Shown here: in pieces, positions 13,208-53,414 of the stretch | Layout of the letters: every line of letters starts with the position of its first letter | How positions within the stretch are numbered: position 1 is the first letter of the stretch | Assembly: GCF_006345805.1 (NCBI RefSeq) | Contig: NC_043010.1 | Location: 29,264,001 to 29,328,000 of the forward strand | Reading direction: 5' to 3' | DNA length: 64,000 nucleotides | Source of the DNA: Octopus sinensis | Lineage: Eukaryota | Program-made: the position numbers and the translations under genes | Notes under the pieces: generated by a model | Database searches by the model: none | What the model saw: the letters and a program-made list of their open reading frames with translations, nothing else | Told to the model about the DNA's origin: nothing

Positions 13208-14272
13208 TTATTTAGTGACATAAATGTGTGGTGAGGGAATACTGAGAGGTGCTGCACTTGTATACATTTGTAGGGCAGGGAAAATCGCTGGAGTCATTTG
13301 AACAGTTGTTGGGAATACTGGCAATACAGATGCCACTTGACCAGAATTAGCCAGAATAACAGGCATTTTGGTGTTCTCTTCTGATACAAGGATTTCACTT
13401 AATTGGGTTGGCAATGAGTTTTGATTGATTGAAAGATTTGTTGACTGGTTCTCAACTATTTCTTGTTGTGGTAGCTCACATTGGTTGTTGTTGGCTTGGT
13501 GAGCATTAGTGCTTCCTTGTTTACAATTTGATGTTGAAGAGTCCAGAAAGACATATGCTGTCTCTTTGTGCGTTTTATCAGATGGATCACTGTCATTGCT
13601 ACTATTCCTTTGGGGTTGTTGATGGCACTGAGGCAGTGATGGTATTGCAGGGTTTAAATTTACTATTAACTGATCGCTTACACTCATTTCAATGTTATCT
13701 GACTCAGTTAATTCTTTAGTTTGAGCAGTAAAAGTAGGTGGGACACAACTGAGCTTTCTTTTACCCTTGCTCAACTGATTGTGCTTTACTAATCTGTCAC
13801 GCCTACTGAATGCGAAACCACATATCTGGCATTTGAATGGACGTTCACCTGTATGTATCCTGCGATGTACTTTGAGATGGTCGCTACGAGACAGTGCTTT
13901 GCCACAGATATCACATTTGAATCTCTTCTCACTCAAATGTGATCCCATGTGCCGCATGAGGTGATGGTTCCTAGAAAACGTGCAGCCACAAGTCTCACAC
14001 CTATATGGTCGGACACCAGTGTGAATTGTTTTGTGTAGTTTCAAGTGATCTCTTCGTGACAGCATTTTGCCACAAATGTCACATGTAAATGAATGAGGAT
14101 TGCTATGAGACAATCCAACAGATGATGATGATGAGGAGGATATTGATGATGATGCAATGGCAACCTGTGGAGTGACCAATATTCCATTGTGAAAGTCATT
14201 TTCAGACATTCTATCTGTATTTATGTTTGATTTGTCAATACATAACATGTCTGCATGAAGTTCATCTTTCAT
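13208..14272 (-). CDS. C2H2 zinc-finger transcription factor, 354 aa, 4 fingers (4th lacks the last His), single coding exon
   Basis: Uninterrupted ORF with CxxC-x12-HxxxH repeats and TGVRPY/TGERPF linkers, plus Ser-rich and Gln/Pro-rich flanks. An in-frame stop lies upstream of the ATG. Confidence 0.92.
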   Translation of the reverse strand: MKDELHADMLCIDKSNINTDRMSENDFHNGILVTPQVAIASSSISSSSSSSVGLSHSNPHSFTCDICGKMLSRRDHLKLHKTIHTGVRPYRCETCGCTFSRNHHLMRHMGSHLSEKRFKCDICGKALSRSDHLKVHRRIHTGERPFKCQICGFAFSRRDRLVKHNQLSKGKRKLSCVPPTFTAQTKELTESDNIEMSVSDQLIVNLNPAIPSLPQCHQQPQRNSSNDSDPSDKTHKETAYVFLDSSTSNCKQGSTNAHQANNNQCELPQQEIVENQSTNLSINQNSLPTQLSEILVSEENTKMPVILANSGQVASVLPVFPTTVQMTPAIFPALQMYTSAAPLSIPSPHIYVTK

Positions 14273-14568
14273 CGCTGAGTTATTGGAAGAAATGTCACCA
14301 GAAAGTGAAAGATAGATATGATGAGAAGTCTTTTGAGAGTTGTCAGGTAAATTAGTATGATACTGGGTTTGATTTCAAATGTATTGATGCTATTGGTGGT
14401 TGTATTAGTGCTATCGTTGTGAATATGGATGTTGCAACAGAGTCAGGGTTTGTTATAGTACAAAAACGTCTTGGTTCATGATGTCTTTTCATTGAGGTAA
14501 CTTTGTCTTTGAGATGGATGAACTTGTCAGACAGCAAAGAGGATTATACATCTTGTGCTTGCTTAAGA

Positions 14569-21460: not shown

Positions 21461-22298
21461 AAAACACTGCTGGCCTGGAACCTCTTTAAAATATGGAAGG
21501 GGAAAAGCCTCGTTCTTGAGGTGGCAATCTCCCTTTGCGATTGTCCATCGAAATACCAACGGGAGATAATCACCTAGGGTTTTATGCTGTTTGAGAGAGT
21601 TCTCAGTACACTCCACGTACTTCTGTGGGTGCGTGATGTCGTTGCGCCTGTTGCTGCTGTCGTTATACTTGTTGGTGTTGTAGGTGCTGCTGTTGTTAAA
21701 GGGTGGGCTATGTGACTGACTTGGGTGCGTATGGAGCCGTGTAGGCATTGGTGCCATGTTCAATTCCCAGTGGTTCGGCCCGTCTTTTTTTAAAACAAGA
21801 GCACCTACAACGACATCACGCGTCCACAGAAGTACGTGGGTGCACTGGGAACTCTCTCAAACAGCGTATTTCCAATCATCTGTCCTCCTTCAAAGTTCCG
21901 GAAAGAAGATACGTGACATCACTGGCCAGCCATATCTGGCAATTACGAGACGAAGAGATTCCATACTCGATTGCATGGAAAATACTCAAGAACCCAGGCC
22001 CCTACGTCAACGGGACGAAACGGTGCAAGTTATGCATTGCCGAACGCATGAGGATCCTTAAAGACTTGCTCGTGCCAGGGAAAATCCTGAACTCCAGGAC
22101 GGAGATTTTCGGACCATGCCTGCTGTTTAGAAAATGTCTGCTGGCTTTTTGGAATCCGCATGGCGGGACTACAGCTGGAACCAATGGCCAAGGCCGAAGG
22201 AAGACAATCGTATGCTTTCGTGGTGCTTTGGTGATCACAAGATGGCAGCGCGGCCGAAGATCGATATGTTTTAAAGAGGTCTCAAGCCAGCAGTTTTT

Positions 22299-22359
22299 GG
22301 AGTCTGAAGATACGCCATAAGGCTAAATCCCTTTTGAGCGAGAAACTCAGAGTAACCCC
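22299..22359 (+). ncRNA. Minimal type I hammerhead fold with intact core
   Basis: GGAGT-CTGAAGA-stem II-GAAA-CTCAGAG-TA-ACCCC. Predicted GUA cleavage after 22354; one stem I mismatch. Confidence 0.7.
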
Positions 22360-32522: not shown

Positions 32523-34740
32523 CACTGGTCAACAAAATGAAACTTTTTTTAATCATTAGAGTTGCTGATTGACTTTACTGGGTTAATTTTTGATGCCGAT
32601 AACAAATCTGAAGTCTGATTTCCTCTATCAGGTCACATTTTCATGTTTATGATGCCTGCTGTTTTAACTTATAGGATACGTAAAGCATGTCTATATAAAG
32701 TATATTGAATGCAAGATACGATAATTTCATGGCTTTTTATTGTACAAAATTAAAATTATTGTTAGAATACACTCAAATGTATAACAACTTAAAATCTTTG
32801 GGATTTAGACTTTCCATAGTGTTTTATCTCAGGTTCATCCCTGTATAACATCCAACAATAGCCAGCTAACATCCCTGCATTCCAAAATCCTTGTTCCATC
32901 GATGCAATATCTTGATGAAGGCATTCCCCTTGCTCATCGGACACTGCTCCAAGTTTCTCTGCAAAAAAGTCCAGATGTGAATCAAGGAAATGGACTTTTA
33001 ATGACATCCGACAGCCCTTTGCAGCGTAGGAGTCTAGAAGACATTTCACTCCATTTCTAAACTCTAGAGATCTCTTGTCACCCAGGAAATTTTCAAAGAG
33101 CCATTTGAAGGATTCCCAGGCTTTAAGCTCAATCTCATCCAGTGCTGTGAGGAAGTGGTTGTCCTTCAGGAGTTCTTTTATCTGCGGACCTATGAATACG
33201 CCCTCCATCAGTTTTGCCTCTGTGATTTTTGGAAATTTGGCCATCACATACTCAAAGCCTTTTGAGTTTTCCCTGGCAAGTGTCTTCACGAATTGTTTTA
33301 TGAGGCCAAGCTTTATGTGAAGAGGGGGAAGAAGAATATTTTCTGGTTTTAAAAGTGGCTTACTCCGGACGCTAGAAACTCCCGGCTCATATGATTTTCG
33401 CAAAGGCCACTCTAATTGCACATAGTACTTGTTAGTTGCACGACTGTTCCATAGGCTTAAAAAGCAACAATATTTCGTGAACCCAGATTGCATTCCCATC
33501 AACATTCCAGTCACCTCCAAGTCTCCACATATTTTCCAGCTGTAGTTTGTATACTTTATGGCATTGAGGTGTACTTGCATGTTTTCATAACATTCCTTCA
33601 TGTACACTGAATGTCCTATGGAAATGGATGGTTTCTTATTGTGTAGTAGTAGTGCCTCGAGGCTTCTCTTAGATGAATCATTGAATAAGCGCCATTCAGC
33701 TGGAACATGCTCTTGGAACAAACAGCGAAATAATTCATCAATGTTACTACTGAAACTAAGTGGTCCATCAACAGAGAAGCAGATCCCTATTTCTCTTCCT
33801 GAAATGAGTAATACAAGCATTTTTCTTAAGCAGACACTTTTCTTGTAGGCGAGATGCTAATAGTTCAGCTTTATCCTTCAACAATGACAAGTCTCTAACT
33901 AAATCATTTAACTCTCCTTGAGAAAATTTCTGAGGTACGTCTTCATTTTCAATTGTGAAATCTGCATCCACTTCGGTATCTTCCTCAGCAGTAGTATTTT
34001 CTTCAGGAAATACATCTTCAAAAGACATCTGAAGGCCATTTTCTGGTGGTATTAAAATAGGAAGATCATCATCGTTGAGTGGTACTGGTCTTCTTGCTGA
34101 TTCCAAGCTGGGATACACAATCTTATGCTTGGTCTTTACAGTAAACCCACATACATTAACGTTGCAGAAATAACAGTCCATGAAGTGATCCTTTGGTTCT
34201 CTCCATATCATAGGTATTGCAAACGGCATTGCTCTCTTCCTCTTATTTAGCCAATCCCCAAGTCCATTTGAAGAAGCTGAGCAGATGATGTACAGGGCCC
34301 AACTCTTATCTTGATCCCCGAGAGAGCAGCCAAAGTATAACTGGTAGATCTTCTTGATTTCACTTGTGATGGCACGTTGCTAAGCTTTGGTGGTAAATGA
34401 ACCACAGACACTGACAAAATATATCAGGACTGTTCTTGCAATGCCTTGACATCCTGTGTAGAATTTGATGTTGACGATGATTTGGCACTTTAAACAGAAA
34501 GTAAAATTTATGAAAAGAAAAGGTTATGAAAACATAAATTTACAAAATGAATACAAATAGTTATAAAACAGAAGTCAGACGTTTACGTGTAGCGATACTG
34601 TTGATGAGAGTTATATACCTCTCTTATCAGAAAAACTGTGCCTGATAGAAGGAAACCAATTACATTTTTGAAATCCACGGACAAAACTACATATAAAACA
34701 CCATATAATATCCCTGATGAAAATTTGCTGTTGACCAGTG
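32523..34740 (-). mobile_element. Chapaev3-type (CMC) DNA transposon with both ends, 2218 bp
   Basis: 12-bp TIR CACTGGTCAACA / TGTTGACCAGTG, TAA duplicated on both sides, subterminal inverted motif tctatcagg/cctgataga, and an internal transposase. Confidence 0.88.
32789..34452 (-). pseudogene. Frameshifted Chapaev-type transposase
   Basis: Starts MSRHCKNSPDIFC. Motifs WREPKDH..CYFC, ICGDLEV, LLPPLHIKLGL and SLKVHFLDSHLDFF..LGAVSDEQGE are split over at least three frames. Confidence 0.85.
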
Positions 34741-41790: not shown

Positions 41791-43522
41791 CTGATCTGGG
41801 CTGTATCAGTGATGTTTACTCCCCAATACACTTTATCGGACATAACATTTGGCGCTCCTGATGTCTTAGCAGCAATAAAGGAAATGAAGCATAATTCAGC
41901 AGTAGGTCCTGATAGGTTCCCTGCTTGTGTTTTGAAGATGTGTCAAAACCAACTTGCACCCCCTCTAGCCAATCTGTGGCGGAACTCACTGGATGCTGGA
42001 TATATACCAGAGGACCTTCTATCCCAGTCTGTTGTCCCAGTTTTCAAAAAAGGAAACAAATCGCTTGCCGTGAATTACCGTCCAATCTCACTCACCTCTC
42101 ATATCATCAAGGTATTTGAGAGGGTGCTGAGATCGCGTATGACTCACTTCCTTGAGAGTCATAATATGCTGAACCCCAACCAGCATGGATTCCGTAATGG
42201 GAGAGATTGCCTGACGCAGCTACTGCATCATTTTGATGACATTTTGAGAGCCTTGGGAGAAGGTTCCAACACTGATGTCATCTACCTTGATTTCAGCAAG
42301 GCCTTTGACAGGGTTGATCATAAGATCCTTCTGAGAAAGCTGTCCAATATTGGTGTCACTGGAAAGTTGCTGCAGTGGATCAAGTGCTTCCTGTCTAACA
42401 GAACCCAACATGTTGTAGTCGAAGGAGTCAAATCCAGCCCAGCCAAAGTCAGCAGTGGTGTCCCACAAGGCACTGTGTTGGGCCCACTTCTCTTCATCAT
42501 CTACATAAATGATATTAATGATACCATCAAACACAGTAACATCAGAACCTTCGCTGATGACTCCAAGCTCCAGAAGGTCATCAATGGCGTGGATGACCGA
42601 ATAAACCTTCAGTCAGACCTACTGGCTGTTGTCCAATGGGCGGAAAAGAATAACATGTTGCTAAATGAAGACAAATTTGAACTGATCCACTTTGGAAGGG
42701 AGGACGCTCTGAAACTCCCATACTCTCTTCATTCTGGAGAAATTCTCATGGCATCCAACAACATCAGAGACCTGGGAGTAACAGTGGACAACAACATAAG
42801 CTGGGCTACACATATAAGCAGCAAAGTTGACATGGCCCGCAGAATGTGTTCCTGGATTCTCAGAACCTTCCAGTCGAGAGATTCCCACACTATTATCCTT
42901 CTCTTCTCCACTTTTGCCCGACCCCACCTTGAATACTGCTGTCCGCTGTGGTCTCCCTACACAAAACAAAATATTATGAGAATTGAAGCTCCCCAAAGGT
43001 CAATCACAAAAAAGATAGATGGCATGTCAGACCTTGACTACTGGGGTAGACTAGAGAAGCTGAAATTGTATTCACTCCAACGACGCCGTGAACGCTACAT
43101 TATCTGTATGATGTGGAAAATATTCCACCCGCACTGTCCGAATGATGTTAGCATCACCTTCAAAGTGCATCCAAGGCTTGGACCACGTGCCATCCGTCCA
43201 CAACAAAAATCTAAATCGCATCACATAACGACAATACGGCACAACTATTTCACCTCAATTGGACCTGCTCTCTTCAACATTACACCAGGGCACGTCAAAA
43301 AAGAAACTGACCACACAAAATTCAAGAAGTCTTTGGACAAATTCCTTCAAACAGTACCGGACAAACCACCCACACCTGGATATGTCTCCGCAAACAATAA
43401 CTCTCTGCTCGAATGGGCCTTGGTGCCCAAATCCTGAACTGAAAGACTTCACCAGGTGGTGCTATTAAGTTAGACATGGCCTGGGCCAATACTGGCCAAA
43501 ACCTTTCTAAGTTATTCTAAGT
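41791..43522 (+). mobile_element. 5'-truncated CR1/L2-group LINE inserted in a TA-rich microsatellite
   Basis: RT ORF, short 3'UTR and TTCTAAGTTA tandem tail; (TA)n-type tracts on both sides. Confidence 0.92.
41809..43437 (+). CDS. LINE ORF2 reverse transcriptase domain and C-terminus, uninterrupted 542 aa, no endonuclease
   Basis: [55 protein letters not shown]. Confidence 0.9.
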
Positions 43523-47152: not shown

Positions 47153-48893
47153 TGATTGATTGATTGATTCTAGTTTCAGCTTATGAGCTGTGGCCATGCT
47201 GGGGCACCGCCATTTGGTGTTGCTACTTGGTTTCACTTCATGGAGGCTTTCTAGCAACTGCTATTTGGTGCATGAGAGAGTTCGATGCAGCTGCCCTCAT
47301 CTGCCCCTCCTGCCGTGAAGTTGGTTCATCTGGGACACCTGACAGGAAGAGATCCAGCTTCATTTTAAAGACATCTGTATCCACCCCATGCAGGTCTCTC
47401 AGGTTCTTCGGGAGGATATTGAAGAGCTGTGGGCCTCGGAAGCCCAGGCTATCACAGAATCTTGTCCTACATCTTGATGGCAGGTTTGGAGTCCTAGGCA
47501 CCACGCAGTGGCGCCCAGTTCTGGCATTTGCGTAACTCTCGATGCCAAAGTTCAGGACACTTCCCTCCAGGATCTTCCAGATGTATATTATGGCATATCT
47601 TTCCCGCCTACGCTCCAGGGAATATAATTTTAATCTCTTGAGTCTTTCCCAGTAGCTTACATTCTGCATAGAGGCTATCTTCTTTGTGTAGCTTCGTTGG
47701 GTCGCCTCAAGTTCTGTGATCAACTTGACACTGGATGGTGACCATAGCTGAGAGCAATAGTCAAAGTGGCTTAGGACAAGTGTCTTCCAGAGGACCATCA
47801 TGGTTCTTGTTCTCTTGTTCTAAAGGTTCTAAGAATCCATCCAGCCAGCCGTCTACATTTCAGTGTCAGTTTAGCAACATATACATGAAAGGTCGCGTCA
47901 TCACTCATGTGAATACCCAGGTCACGCACTGATTGTGCCTCTGGGATTGCAATCCCTCCGGGTCCAGTGTATTCATTGGGTATTGCATTCAGTTTTGCAT
48001 GCTGATAGTATAAAGCTTGAAACTTTCCAGCATTGAACTGCATGCTATTCTTTTCAGCCCACTTGTATATTTCGTCCAGCTCACATTGCAGGTGTTTAGT
48101 GTCCTCAGGGTTCTGTATTGCCTGTGAAACTTTTGTATCATCTGCATAACTTGTGATCGTGGCTCTCTGCGTGGCTGAGGGCATGTCTGAGAGGGCCATT
48201 ATGAACAGTAGTGGTCCCAGAACAGTGCCCTGCGGAACACCGCTCACTATTTGTGTGTTAATGGAGGTGGCCCCATTGGCTACTACCACCTGACTTCTAT
48301 CCTTCAGAAAGTCATGAAGCCATTCTCCCAGTTTTCCAACTATGTTGAGATCACGCAGTTTGTGACATATCATTCCATGATCGACTTTATCAAAGGCCTT
48401 TGCAAAGTCGAGATATATCACTTCCACATTTGAGTGGTTGAGCAGCCGTTTCAGCACCCAGTCATAGTGTTGTAGGAGCTGAGTTAAACAGCTTCTCCCT
48501 GGTCGGAAACCATGTTGGGTGTCGGGCAGCAAGTCATTCCTTTCAAGGAAGGTGATCAGCTTCCTTCTGACTATTCGTTCCATGACCTTGCTGATGTGTG
48601 AGGTCAGAGAGATAGGTCTATAGTTCTTGGCTTCCGCTCTGCTACCTCCTTTATGAATGGGGCATATTTTACCTTCCTTCAGTTTTCCTGGAAGTTTGCC
48701 AGCTGCAAGGAAGCTCTGAAAGAGGAACTGCAGTGGTCTTGCTAGGACTCTCTTACATGCTTTTAGGAGGATTGCCGGGAATCCATCGGGGCCAGTAGCT
48801 GAGTCTGTTTTCATTTCATCTATAGCCTTGGTTACATCTTCTTCCTTTATATCGATGTAATCTATCGTCGCCGCCTCTGATTTTATATCTGCA
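47153..48893 (-). mobile_element. 5'-truncated CR1/L2-group LINE with one frameshift (about 47800), in a TA/TG microsatellite
   Basis: [32 protein letters not shown] and YADD in one ORF; FDYCSQLWSP..LERRRERY in the next; (ATCA)n tail. Confidence 0.92.
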
Positions 48894-49326
48894 GTGTATA
48901 TATATGTGTGTGTGTATATATATATGTATATATATATGTGTGTGTGTGTATATATATGTATATATATATGTATATGTTTGTGTACATATGTGTATATATA
49001 TATGTATCTATATGTGTATATATATGTATATGTATATATATATATATTATATATATATGTATATATGTGTATATATATATATATATGTATGTATATATAT
49101 ATGTGCATGTGTATATATGTATATATATATATACATATATACATGTGCATGTGTATATATGTATATATATATGTATGTATATATATATATGTATATTTGT
49201 GTATATATATGTACATATATGTATGTATATATATGTATATATAAGTATATATATATGTTTATATATATATGTATATATGTATGTGTATATAAATATGTAT
49301 ATATATATGTATGTATATATATATGT

Positions 49327-49367
<41 letters not shown>

Positions 49368-49459
49368 TCATCATCATCATCGTTTAGCGTCCGTTTTCCA
49401 TGCTAGCATGGGTTGGACCATATATATGTATATAAATATATGTGTGTATATATATGTGT

Positions 49460-49515
<56 letters not shown>
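48894..49515. repeat. Compound (TA)n/(TG)n/(TATG)n microsatellite; similar tracts at 2680-2760, 21035-21150, 28045-28220, 41650-41790, 45605-45920, 50210-50475, 50760-51005 and 55570-55835
   Basis: Directly visible low-complexity repeats; the source of the YI/CV/HT-repeat ORFs. Confidence 0.95.
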
Positions 49516-49517
<2 letters not shown>

Positions 49518-49544
49518 GAAGGTTGAAAAGGAACACATGAGTTG

Positions 49545-50209
49545 ATATATATGGAAAAAAAATGTCAAGGTAGAAAATGCTACACTAATTTTATAAAAAA
49601 ATTTCAGTACCAGTTTCATTCATTGAGATTTTTTCAGCTGTAAGTATGGAAAACAATTAAATTTTAGAAAAATTATAAGAATATTTGCATAGTGTTCAAA
49701 TACAAGTGGTATTTTCCTTGTTTCTGCCTGTTTCTGTCTCTCTTTGTGGGAAAACCATGCATATGTCTTCAAAACCTTTCATTCTTCAGGGGGTCAGTTT
49801 CAGACCCAATCAAATATGGCAGAAGTTCGAGAATATATCTTCCAAGACAGTAGTTATCCTGGTACTCAGTTTGTTTAACCTTGTTATCAACCAGCCCAAT
49901 ATAGTGCAGGCTGCAGTTAATGCACAACCTACACCTGAGAACAAGTGCTCAACTATTAATTTTGACAATTCTTCTCATGAAGGCCGTGCTTGTTGCCAAA
50001 AGAGTAAACAAGAGAGACAGAAACAGATAGAAACAAGGAAAATGCCACTTGTATTTGAACACTATGCAAATATTCTTTTAAAAACTTTTCCTTTCATTTT
50101 TCAAAAATTTAATTGTTTTCCGTACTTATAGTCGAAAAAGTTTCAGGTACTGAAATGTTTTTTATAAAATTACTTTACCATTTTCTACCATGACTTTTTT
50201 TCCATATAT
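49545..50209. mobile_element. Inverted Penelope-like arms of about 200 bp enclosing a captured gene fragment
   Basis: 49545-49745 and 50010-50209 are reverse complements. The left arm has a hammerhead remnant (49603-49642, minus). Confidence 0.8.
49746..50003 (+). pseudogene. 258-bp copy of the 5' CDS (51820-52089) of the downstream ZNF gene
   Basis: By-eye alignment gives 9 substitutions and indels of +1, -2 and -11 nt. Confidence 0.93.
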
Positions 50210-50236
50210 GTGTATATATATATATTATATATATAT

Positions 50237-50298
<62 letters not shown>

Positions 50299-50350
50299 TG
50301 TATGTATGTATGTATGTATGTATGTATGTATGTATGTATGTATGTATGTA

Positions 50351-50443
<93 letters not shown>

Positions 50444-50756
50444 TGTGTGTGTGTGGTGTGTGTGTGTGTGTGTGTATACATAGTACAAAGTAAGATAGGA
50501 GTTATGAGGGTAACCCACTATGGGATATCAGTTATCCACAATACATAGGCAGAATGAGATGTTTTTATCTATGGGCTGAAACAGCTGTAAGGAGCAGTTT
50601 ATTTATATTATTCTTATGGTTTTATTAATTTGCATATTGATGTATATTTTTTTTGTTTGATTTTCATGTTCCTATTTATATAATTAATAAATAATATGAA
50701 ATGGTAATATCTGTAAGTTGGTGTTTGAAATGAATTTGTTTCTCCATTTTCTTATT

Positions 50757-50798
<42 letters not shown>

Positions 50799-50812
50799 AT
50801 ATATATATATAT

Positions 50813-50862
<50 letters not shown>

Positions 50863-50922
50863 CACATATATATATGTTTATGTATATATATATATATATA
50901 TACATACACATATATATATGTT

Positions 50923-50968
<46 letters not shown>

Positions 50969-50973
50969 TATAT

Positions 50974-51007
<34 letters not shown>

Positions 51008-51139
51008 CATAGTGATTGATTCAATGAACTATATTTCCTTTATTACAAATGTTTTTAGGTTTTGTGTTTATACCAAAAATCATTAATAATAATTTTAAAA
51101 AAGTAAAAGAAATAAATTTAAAATGTAATTATGACTTCT

Positions 51140-51177
51140 ATCTTTCTTTCTTTTCTTTTTTTTTATGTAATTTTCAG
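51140..51177 (+). promoter_or_regulatory. 3' splice site of the 11-finger ZNF coding exon (exon starts 51178)
   Basis: Long polypyrimidine tract ending TTTTCAG|AT, about 630 nt upstream of the ATG. Confidence 0.65.
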
Positions 51178-51806
51178 ATTTATAGCTGGTCTTGTTTAAG
51201 TGCAGTGATAACTACATGGTTGAGGTAGCATTTACCAACTGTTCATATTCGACTGCAGAAAAATCCCTGCTCTCACCCGAAACCTTAAAAAACTGGATGT
51301 AAACCCAACACAGAAAATAAAAATAAATGAAAAACCAAAATTAAACAGAAAAGGATTATTTGAAACAATATCTAAATTGCAATGGATATTTTTCCTATAC
51401 AGAGAAATCTTTGTTTTTATAACACCTTCATTTCAAACTGGAACTGAACCTTTTTTAGCAAAATTTTCTACTCCACACAATTTCTTTTGTGAAAAATGTT
51501 AATGGCTGTTTAATCTTTGGATTCCATAATATGTCAGGAAGTTGAATTGAGAGAATACGAAAACAAAGTGGTGAAAAAGCTAAGGAGAAAAAAAAAATAC
51601 CCCTTCCTTTTAAATGTCAACTATTGGAAGCTTCTAATGATGCTTTCCTTAATAGTTATAAATCATGTGGCACATCTATATATGAGTGTTTAATATCTTT
51701 GAATAGAGGAATATTTGTTTGAAGGAGGTTTATAATATGATATTCGTAAAAAAGTAACATCACAAAGTGATTTGAGAAATTAAGCCTTCATTTATCATTA
51801 TAAATA

Positions 51807-53414
51807 ATGTCACACTTGGGTGGGAAAACCATGCATATGTCTTCAAAACCTTTCGTTCCTCAGGGGTCAGAGTTTCAGACCCAATCAAATATGGCAGAAG
51901 TTCGAGAATATATCTTCCAAGACAGTAGTTATCCTGGTACTCAGTTTGTTCAACCTTGTTATCAACCAGCTGAACTAAGGCCCAATATAGTGCAGGCTGC
52001 AGTTAATGAACAGCCTACACCTGAGAACAAGAGCTCAACCATTAATTTTGACAATTCTTCCCATGAAGGCTGTGCTTGTTGCCAAAAGACATGTCAGTGC
52101 CCTAGCTGTACTGATGGTGGAAACGGTAATGGAAGTGGTGTTGGCACTAGCAATAGCAGCAATATAGGAGAACATAACATTTGCAATGTTAGTGAACAAC
52201 CTGTCACCAATATGCCAATTCAGACGACTGGAAATGGAAAAAAGCAGCTATTTTGTGAATTTTGTGGAAAGAAATTTGTCCAAGAATATGTCCTGAAGGT
52301 CCACAGGCGTAAACATACTGGGGAAAAGCCATATGAATGTGAAATCTGCTCCAAGAAATTTGCCAGAAATGATACCCTACGCAAACACAAGAGAATTCAT
52401 ACTGGACAGCCAAACGGCAGCGTTTCTAATGTTGGTATCTCTCCTAGTTTGAGTTTAATGATTGCGCAAGGTGTTGTTGCCCAGGAAAATGGTGTAACCA
52501 ATCCTGGGAACCCAGGCACTATGATGTCTTCTGTTTCTAATTCTCAGACGTCTCAGAGAAACAGTCAGAAATCATATACCTGTGACATTTGCTTGAAACC
52601 GTTTGCTCAGCGCCATTATTTACAGATCCATAAACGAACCCATACAGGTGAGCGCCCTTTTCACTGTCAGGTTTGTGAGCGAAGTTTCACCCGTAGAGAC
52701 ACACTGATTATTCATCAGCGGACTCACACTGGCGTGAAACCATTTCATTGTGAAATCTGCATGCAACAATTTGCACACAAACACAACCTCCAGATACACA
52801 AACGGAAACATACCGGGGAGAAACTGTTTCAATGTGACATCTGCGCTGAACTGTTCACACGCCGTGATTATTTACAAATTCATCGGCGGACTCATACAGG
52901 AGAGAAACCCTTCCAGTGTGATCTCTGTATCCAGAAGTTTGCCCGTCGCACCACATTGGAAATTCACAGACGAACACACACAGGGGAGAAGCCATTCCAC
53001 TGTGAGTTCTGTGGGAAACAATTTGCCAATCGAGACAAGCTTCGCATACACCAGAGAACACATGTACGCAAGAAGCCACACCAGTGCACTATATGTCTAA
53101 AGAAGTTTGCACGGAGAGATACACTTGAAATTCACAGCCGGAGACACTCTGGCCTCAAGCCATTCCATTGTGACATTTGTCTGAAGAAATTTGCACAGAA
53201 AGATTACCTTCAGATTCATAAGAACACTGTGCACTCGGGACAGAAACCTTTCCAATGTGACCTCTGCACACAGAAGTTCTCCCGCCGTGATTCTCTGCAG
53301 CGGCACAAGAAAACACACTATAAACAGGTTGATGAAGTGCAGAAGGCCACATCTAGCATCACAAATAACAATGTGGAAGAGGTGCAGCCACTGAATAAAT
53401 ACTTATGGTTGTAA
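51807..53414 (+). CDS. C2H2 zinc-finger protein, 535 aa, 11 fingers (2 + 9 array), single coding exon
   Basis: Uninterrupted ORF with 11 CxxC-x12-Hx3-4H units and TGEKPY/F-type linkers, plus an N-terminal CACCQKTCQCPSC cluster. Confidence 0.95.
   Translation: MSHLGGKTMHMSSKPFVPQGSEFQTQSNMAEVREYIFQDSSYPGTQFVQPCYQPAELRPNIVQAAVNEQPTPENKSSTINFDNSSHEGCACCQKTCQCPSCTDGGNGNGSGVGTSNSSNIGEHNICNVSEQPVTNMPIQTTGNGKKQLFCEFCGKKFVQEYVLKVHRRKHTGEKPYECEICSKKFARNDTLRKHKRIHTGQPNGSVSNVGISPSLSLMIAQGVVAQENGVTNPGNPGTMMSSVSNSQTSQRNSQKSYTCDICLKPFAQRHYLQIHKRTHTGERPFHCQVCERSFTRRDTLIIHQRTHTGVKPFHCEICMQQFAHKHNLQIHKRKHTGEKLFQCDICAELFTRRDYLQIHRRTHTGEKPFQCDLCIQKFARRTTLEIHRRTHTGEKPFHCEFCGKQFANRDKLRIHQRTHVRKKPHQCTICLKKFARRDTLEIHSRRHSGLKPFHCDICLKKFAQKDYLQIHKNTVHSGQKPFQCDLCTQKFSRRDSLQRHKKTHYKQVDEVQKATSSITNNNVEEVQPLNKYLWL

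What the first reader, a model, noticed from the sequence alone, without database searches (positions are those of the whole stretch)
49545..52089. Zinc-finger gene fragment captured between inverted hammerhead-bearing arms about 2 kb upstream of its source
Seen: 49746-50003 copies 51820-52089 (9 substitutions, 3 indels, no A-to-G changes). It sits between two inverted arms of about 200 bp, and the whole module lies in TA microsatellite. The left arm reads CAG-CTGAAAA-..-GAAA-CTGG-TA-CTG outward. The right arm has TCGAAAA and a deletion, so TTGAAAA (U3:A8) is the simplest ancestral core. Established: PLE insertions often carry an inverted partial terminal repeat. Inference: a PLE reverse transcriptase switched template onto the local ZNF transcript or DNA, giving Pack-like gene capture by a retroelement. 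If the module is intronic, the pre-mRNA would form a long duplex (a potential ADAR or small-RNA substrate) with gene-homologous sequence in the loop. This could be one route for shuffling ZNF pieces.
Basis: partly seen in the sequence, partly recalled or inferred. Interest (0 to 1): 0.75.

Follow-up and report, generated by a model that had tools for sequence, protein, structure and literature searches.

The report
Penelope scar holding copied neighbouring exon
A dead, two-armed stump of a Penelope-type jumping gene holds a 258-base copy of the finger-less front end of a zinc-finger gene 2 kb away, likely copied from neighbouring DNA while the insertion was being sealed, a kind of scar already known from human LINE-1 and so far seen only once more in this element family.

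Summary
The structure is real. 49746-50003 copies 51820-52089 (9 substitutions, 3 indels) and occurs nowhere else in the genome. Contigs from two other studies match part of it exactly. The arms are not DNA-transposon TIRs. They are 3' ends of a high-copy Penelope-like retroelement (RT + C-terminal GIY-YIG, Neptune-type linker) laid head-to-head in TA repeats, with the tail on one arm only. The family hammerhead has the published U3:A8 core, but both copies here are broken. The captured piece holds no zinc finger and has not been moved on. Both seams show microhomology (5 and 4 bp), and filler and arms have similar ages. One of 47 other pairs holds a comparable filler, also from a source 2.7 kb away in the same geometry. 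Best reading: filler templated from nearby DNA during joining of the two cDNA ends (0.5). Rivals are an RT switch onto ZNF RNA (0.25) or later hairpin-break repair (0.2). Analogues are published for L1, Pack-TIRs and rotifer Penelope. This scan already noted the same scar in several other genomes. Intronic status is only hinted at.

The parts
48897..49514 (.). TA-rich microsatellite, left target flank (no TSD can be defined inside it)
49515..49551 (-). PLE 'tail' (about 30 nt plus a short TA spacer), present on this arm only; 3' end of the insertion
   Evidence: exactly one tail in 22 of 28 head-to-head pairs, none in 6, both in 0
49552..49745 (-). Left arm: 5'-truncated 3' end (pLTR) of a Neptune-type PLE, element sense on the minus strand
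49605..49640 (-). Decayed minimal type I hammerhead: U3 changed to C (C3:A8 mismatch), two stem II changes, stem III palindrome changed
   Evidence: against the family majority; no Rfam hammerhead hit at E<=10
49746..50003 (+). 258-bp filler copied from 51820-52089, same orientation as its source; 5-bp microhomology with the element at the left seam (49746-49750) and 4-bp at the right seam (50000-50003)
   Evidence: contigs of X12 and X17
50004..50204 (+). Right arm: inverted, tail-less copy of the same pLTR end
50129..50152 (+). Hammerhead remnant: U4 changed to C, and a 12-nt deletion removes stem II 3' side and GAAA
50205..50475 (.). TA/TATG/TG microsatellite, right target flank
51140..51177 (+). 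Candidate splice acceptor (pyrimidine tract plus CAG) upstream of the ZNF frame; would place the module in an upstream intron (untested)
   Evidence: read from sequence; CpG profile is an indirect hint
51820..52089 (+). Source of the filler: codons 6-96 of the ZNF frame, finger-less N-terminal part; its ends are not splice sites or a poly(A) site
51804..53414 (+). 536-codon stop-to-stop frame of a multi-finger C2H2 gene (first ATG 51807; fingers from about 52251)

Best explanation
This is a dead head-to-head insertion of a Penelope-like retroelement in a TA repeat, and the 258-bp filler at its centre was likely copied from chromosomal DNA 2 kb away while the two halves were being joined. Shown: family identity, one-sided tail, head-to-head geometry, unique local source, microhomology at both seams, similar age of filler and arms. 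Inferred: the element's enzyme cut the TA repeat and both DNA ends primed short cDNAs from the element RNA, one from the tail start and one from the inner start. The tailed cDNA ended in a 5-base word that also opens the source. It annealed to the minus strand of the ZNF exon, which would lie exposed if the opposite end was resected, and was extended about 270 nt. It then released and annealed to the other cDNA through a 4-base word. The polymerase (PLE RT working on DNA, or a host repair polymerase) is not identified. The result is a one-off, non-mobile, finger-less duplicate with no sign of function.
For: Arms continue in longer copies into RT and GIY-YIG frames. A related full-length unit has a 784-codon frame with DKG, YLDD, CX4CxxC linker and CCHH GIY-YIG, in tandem and inverted arrays (L053). 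Tail asymmetry: 22 of 28 pairs have one tail, 0 have two. PAc cuts and extends both strands at AT-rich DNA from two RT starts that define the tail (PMC11167929, text parts 1-2 of 4). The filler exists only at copy and source. Microhomology of 5 and 4 bp has a joint chance of about 3e-4 in a random-breakpoint simulation. Divergence ratio filler to arm is 0.86 (95% 0.33-2.1), Fisher p 0.83. Second case L203: a 134-bp filler whose best match among the 26 other hits (27 with itself) lies 2.7 kb away, is a frameshifted LINE fragment, and has the same geometry (tail left, source on the tail-less side, direct). It also carries a 10-base patch resembling the arm itself. Fragment ends are not splice or poly(A) sites. 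L1 precedents for DNA-templated pieces in insertions: PMC11702581 and 10.1101/2024.08.27.596794 (passages).
Against: The piece lies inside one reading frame, so it cannot tell RNA from DNA. In both cases the tail-less cDNA could equally have copied a sense RNA. The age interval is wide enough to allow later repair. In the multiple alignment the arms differ at 17 of 177 sites and are only the 37th and 20th nearest to each other of 141, so a common template is not proven. The L203 filler is 13 of 134 diverged from its source against 11 of 209 between its arms, more than equal age predicts. L1 templated insertions usually come from within 15 bp of the site, not 2 kb. The geometry rule rests on two cases.
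Confidence: 0.5

Rival explanations
1. The PLE reverse transcriptase, while making the tail-less cDNA, jumped at the 4-base word onto the nascent ZNF transcript, copied 270 nt of it and was joined to the tailed cDNA at the 5-base word.
For: Polarity fits for the tail-less arm in both cases. The source is exonic, and CpG depletion from about 47 kb onward hints that the site lies in a gene body. L1 insertions join two RNA templates (PMC11702581 passages). PLEs mobilise host sequence between pLTRs (PMC3846280 passages). An earlier unchecked note reports host mRNA pieces in PLE hairpins in this genome (e1-10345762).
Against: No splice junction, poly(A) or A>G change in the filler. The second case copies a decayed LINE piece. 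Strict locality is expected of a DNA template but only of nascent RNA. Transcription across the site was not shown.
Confidence: 0.25
2. The plain head-to-head palindrome inserted first. Its hairpin centre broke later and was patched by gap-filling from nearby DNA, as for single-copy Pack-TIRs, with no role for the element's enzyme.
For: Single copy, source under 5 kb away, microhomology, central breakpoints: the four marks of gap-filled Pack-TIRs (PMC8277862 passages). The arms form a very stable fold. With 17 of 177 arm differences the filler looks slightly younger, and one X17 contig suggests that two of its 9 differences may be polymorphic.
Against: Ages are statistically alike. Both seams fall in the zone where unfilled pairs of this family are joined. 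No empty-centre allele could be assigned to this locus in three other DNA runs (contigs show presence, not absence).
Confidence: 0.2
3. The arms are TIRs of a DNA transposon (Pack-MULE or MITE), or the module is an assembly artefact.
For: Long inverted arms, TA flanks and a captured gene piece look like a Pack-TIR at first sight.
Against: Most copies are single, directional and 5'-truncated: 81 of 99 pattern-picked loci had no head-to-head partner. Longer ones lead into RT-GIY-YIG. The tail is one-sided. Copy-specific sequence recurs in two other studies.
Confidence: 0.02

Closest known systems
EN+ Penelope-like insertions with an inverted 5'-truncated copy and a one-sided 30-40-bp tail (PMC8557442 passages; PMC3846280 passages; PMC11167929 parts 1-2 of 4)
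   Same: Head-to-head arms, tail on one arm, TA-repeat target, minimal hammerhead in the pLTR, C-terminal GIY-YIG with CX4CxxC linker and CCHH in the parent family.
   Different: Here the inversion seam holds foreign DNA with a traceable local source. In the passages read, inverted seams are direct or palindromic.
Host DNA capture by Adineta vaga Penelope (NRPS gene, Pen1 spacers, sequences between solo pLTRs; PMC3846280 passages)
   Same: Host sequence framed by PLE terminal repeats.
   Different: There the gene lies between direct pLTRs and was moved to a new site with a TSD. Here a short piece sits between inverted arms 2 kb from its source and was not moved.
L1 templated insertions (10.1101/2024.08.27.596794, 22 cases; PMC11702581, 3 cases; passages only, supplementary figures not seen)
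   Same: Non-element DNA under about 250 bp copied from near the target during integration, with microhomology at inversion seams.
   Different: Different retroelement class; L1 sources are usually within 15 bp, here 2.1 and 2.7 kb away.
Single-copy Pack-TIRs made by gap-filling (PMC8277862 passages)
   Same: Single copy, cis source under 5 kb, microhomology, filler in the middle of an inverted-repeat element.
   Different: The arms are retroelement ends, not transposase TIRs, so the unit cannot be cut and pasted; timing looks close to insertion rather than clearly later.
Minimal type I hammerheads of PLE pLTRs with U3-A8 core (Schistosoma Cercyon; PMC4209133 passages)
   Same: U3-A8 core, 4-bp stem II, short palindromic stem III in the family majority.
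   Different: Both copies at this locus are broken; cleavage was not tested.

Membership tests
EN+ Penelope-like elements | RT with C-terminal GIY-YIG endonuclease in the parent family | tested here: met
   Pfam GIY-YIG E 7e-5, above cut-off, in L003, whose arm is 92% identical to the left arm. 784-codon RT-EN frames in related units with arms 73-80% identical. RT motifs were read by eye; Pfam found no RT family in two short decayed pieces.
EN+ Penelope-like elements | pLTR in tandem and inverted arrangements, 5' truncation | tested here: met
   (L053, L055, L056), 50-52: 18 of 99 pattern-picked loci are head-to-head pairs, the rest single or tandem.
EN+ Penelope-like elements | 30-40-bp tail on one end only | tested here: met
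   one tail in 22 of 28 pairs, none in 6, two in 0.
EN+ Penelope-like elements | Hammerhead motif in the pLTR | tested here: met
   Family majority and 22 of 142 arms carry the full motif. Both window arms are decayed, and Rfam does not detect them.
Neptune clade | CX2-5CxxC linker before the endonuclease, CCHH motif, DKG motif | tested here: met
   Read from the translations against the definitions in PMC8557442. Nematis shares the linker.
Neptune clade | Placement in an RT phylogeny with reference Neptune and Nematis | not tested
   No reference PLE set was on hand.
Pack-TIR / Pack-MULE | Arms are TIRs of a DNA transposon, symmetrical, with own TSD | tested here: not met
   Asymmetric tail, directional truncated copies, RT-bearing parents.
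Pack-TIR / Pack-MULE | Captured piece of a nearby sequence with microhomology at the seams | tested here: met
Pack-TIR / Pack-MULE | Re-mobilisation of the composite unit (multicopy class) | tested here: not met
   The filler occurs at two places only, copy and source.
RNA-templated capture (retrocopy) | Loss of intron, poly(A) tail or editing marks | tested here: inconclusive
   The piece lies inside one frame; none of these marks is present.
Active hammerhead ribozyme at this locus | Intact core and stems, self-cleavage | tested here: not met
   Core and stems are broken in both arms. Cleavage itself cannot be tested with these tools.

The most novel reading that the evidence does not exclude
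Penelope integration has a sealing step in which a free cDNA end reaches kilobases into the flank on the tail-less side, or onto the nascent RNA of the gene it is entering, and copies a few hundred bases. The fixed geometry seen in both cases here (tail left, source on the tail-less side, same orientation) would then be a readable footprint of how twin-primed PLE insertions are resolved, and a steady source of local exon duplicates locked in RNA hairpins.
Probability: 0.25. Interest if true: 0.6.

Novelty: new variant of a known kind. Interest (0 to 1): 0.36.

Why it matters
How PLEs finish an insertion and form head-to-head pairs is still open (stated in PMC8557442 and PMC11167929). Fillers with a traceable source record which strand was free, which side was exposed and whether RNA or DNA was copied. 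A family with thousands of copies makes that countable. This single copy is dead, finger-less and not re-mobilised, so it is a mechanistic footprint rather than a new gene or a ZNF-shuffling engine.

Tried and rejected
Rfam scan of 49400-50400 at E<=10 gave no hammerhead hit; the motif was established from the family alignment instead. DNA-transposon reading rejected. Protein searches with the finger-less N-terminus found no relative (none of 119 candidates at E<=1e-3; two weak low-complexity hits), and four start variants of the ZNF protein were not in the collection, so no upstream exon could be mapped that way. No RNA-based exon map was obtained, which leaves intronic status open. In one search run X3 and the probable RNA run X9 gave no cover over the filler although both hold the source; these are holes, not absence. 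X3 has a 97-nt exact match to the left arm. An X3 joint that skips 258 bases (depth 2.8, 21 bases on one side) could not be assigned to this locus and is likely another family copy. No genome-wide count of long-spaced pairs was obtained; the survey rests on 99 pattern-picked loci plus top hits of three DNA searches. Dropped from the pair count: L092, L139, L154 (microsatellite false hits), L027 (complex), L200 and L223 (tail-to-tail), second pairs off the sampled site in L120 and L157, and duplicates of loci already counted. L186's seam was seen only in part. Literature searches found no paper on locally copied fillers in PLE inversion seams. Only open-access text was searched, and supplements (L1 Fig. 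S10, Supplementary Fig. 4d, PLE supplementary files) were not seen.

Full report
Observation. The module is as described. 49746-50003 aligns to 51820-52089 with 9 substitutions and 3 indels; none is A>G on the + strand. The arms 49552-49745 and 50004-50204 are inverted (169 matches, 15 mismatches, 4 gaps) and sit in TA-rich microsatellite. A search of the own genome with the filler returned two places only, copy and source. Contigs from runs X12 and X17, of two other studies, match 49846-50025 without a difference, including the copy-specific 11-bp deletion and the first 22 bases of the right arm. That falls short of the tool's 31-base rule for a bridge, and no listed contig bridges the left seam. 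Still, an assembly duplication would not carry private mutations that recur elsewhere. The source is codons 6-96 of a 536-codon C2H2 frame; fingers begin near codon 150, so no finger was captured. That the genome is an octopus-like cephalopod is my inference from its repeats and from earlier notes; no call named it.

What the arms are. The left arm found 1,853 candidates, of which 40 were scored, giving 47 matches. An exact 18-mer occurs 466 times against 0 for the reversed control. Copies are directional and truncated at variable points. Longer ones run into decayed RT and endonuclease frames; Pfam calls GIY-YIG above cut-off in L003. The endonuclease found 18,332 candidates. Related units with arms 73-80% identical carry 784-codon frames with DKG, YLDD, a CX4CxxC linker and a CCHH GIY-YIG, in tandem and inverted arrays. 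By the definitions in PMC8557442 (passages) this is a C-terminal EN+ PLE of Neptune type; no tree was built. The left arm carries a tail (49515-49551) that the right arm lacks. Among 28 head-to-head pairs including this one, 22 have one tail, 6 none and 0 two. This is the published PLE signature, and the tail marks two RT start sites in vitro (PMC11167929, parts 1-2 of 4). The DNA-transposon alternative fails.

Hammerhead. Of 142 aligned arms, the core could be read in 89; 78 read TTGAAAA, and 22 of 142 keep the full motif with a 4-bp stem II and a palindromic stem III. The U3-A8 variant is published for Schistosoma PLEs (PMC4209133 passages). Here the left copy has C3:A8 and a damaged stem II, and the right copy has lost GAAA. 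Both are predicted dead, and Rfam sees neither.

Seams and age. The family sequence just inside the arm shares 5 bases with the start of the source and, on the other strand, 4 bases with its end. The left seam also needs a 9-base loss in the arm, or an imperfect 10-base match to the source flank. In 200,000 random joins, P(>=4) was 0.024, P(>=5) 0.008, jointly about 3e-4. Filler divergence (9 of 256) and per-arm divergence (15 over 2x184) do not differ: ratio 0.86, 95% 0.33-2.1. In the multiple alignment the arms differ at 17 of 177 and rank 37th and 20th to each other of 141. One X17 contig carries two of the copy's letters together with a source-type insertion, so some differences may be polymorphic. 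Capture at insertion fits, and later capture is not excluded.

How common. I fetched 10 kb around the first 100 listed 18-mer sites (99 loci). Eighteen are head-to-head pairs, and none holds a foreign filler over 45 bp. Seams are direct, overlapping, or patched with a few bases, an (ATT)n run or nearby element sequence. Top hits of three DNA searches added 9 pairs and 20 pairs; one query favours unfilled pairs. One of these 47 other pairs, L203, holds a 134-bp foreign filler plus a 10-base patch. Its best match among 26 other genome hits lies 2.7 kb away on the same contig (90%) and is a frameshifted LINE fragment. The geometry equals ours: tail left, source on the tail-less side, same orientation. 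Its filler is more diverged (13 of 134) than its arms (11 of 209).

Mechanism. The tailed arm's cDNA grows as + strand, so it can only copy the minus strand of the ZNF exon, that is DNA. The tail-less arm's cDNA grows as minus strand and could copy either DNA or the sense RNA. Both routes give the same product. I favour DNA copied during sealing (0.5) because both sources are strictly local, the second is a dead repeat, the ends ignore splice and poly(A) sites, and resection of the tail-less end would expose exactly the strand needed (inference). An RT switch to nascent RNA (0.25) and later repair of a broken hairpin (0.2) stay open. L1 shows both DNA-templated pieces and two-RNA joins (PMC11702581 and 10.1101/2024.08.27.596794, passages). 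Single-copy Pack-TIRs arise by local gap-filling (PMC8277862 passages). Rotifer Penelope frames host genes between direct pLTRs (PMC3846280 passages).

Consequences. As RNA the module is predicted to fold into a long duplex (-269.6 kcal/mol, z -31). Whether it is transcribed is open. There is a candidate acceptor at 51140-51177, and CpG o/e falls from about 0.9 at 45-47 kb to 0.15-0.55 over 47-56 kb, which hints at a gene body. The probable RNA run X9 had no contig at 99% or better on the module, but it held family arm pieces with 8 of 8 and 7 of 7 differences of the A>G type; these come from other copies. Nothing suggests function for the filler.

Verdict. It is a rare sealing scar, not shown to be RT-made, not mobile and not finger-bearing. 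My searches found no paper describing local fillers in PLE inversion seams, but close analogues are in print, and unchecked notes of this scan report the same scar in several other genomes. New variant of a known kind; interest 0.36.

Noticed in passing
window 49757-50131 (+): The filler's three indels sum to -12, so a stop-free frame of 124 codons runs from the copied ATG, out of and back into the ZNF frame, and on into the right arm. Likely chance; no evidence of expression.
   Followed up: no
run X9 contigs laid on window 49516-50210: Family arm pieces from other copies show dense A>G changes on the element's sense strand right across the hammerhead core (8 of 8 and 7 of 7 differences), as expected from ADAR hyper-editing; the run is RNA by guess only.
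   Followed up: partly
L203 = G000:C11421:3961-4094, source C11421:6666-6799: Second head-to-head pair of this family with a locally copied filler (LINE RT fragment) in the same geometry.
   Followed up: yes
L053-L057, L059 (G000:C3, C1, C10): A young related subfamily with near-identical tandem and inverted units of about 4.4 kb; L053 shows a 437-codon frame that starts across the tail, followed by a 784-codon RT-endonuclease frame.
   Followed up: partly
window 47238-48900 (-) and 41791-43437 (-): Two non-LTR retrotransposon RT frames; the first ends in the same TA microsatellite that holds the module.
   Followed up: no
window 49370-49419; L091 right flank: A short (CAT)n-headed repeat fragment sits in the TA run near the tail; the same fragment flanks another copy's tail.
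   Followed up: no
window 13208-14374 (-), L061: Further C2H2 frames nearby; the locus is part of a zinc-finger gene cluster.
   Followed up: no
window 21745-22320 (+): A 191-codon frame that looks by eye like the end of another PLE endonuclease; no Pfam hit.
   Followed up: partly
window 32789-34379 (-): Two long overlapping frames that look like a decayed DNA transposase; label recalled, not tested.
   Followed up: no
L220 and L221 (G000:C2, 450 kb apart); L098: Two mirror-identical PLE pairs 450 kb apart, and a 1.2-kb exact tandem duplication containing an arm; recent duplications or assembly duplicates.
   Followed up: no
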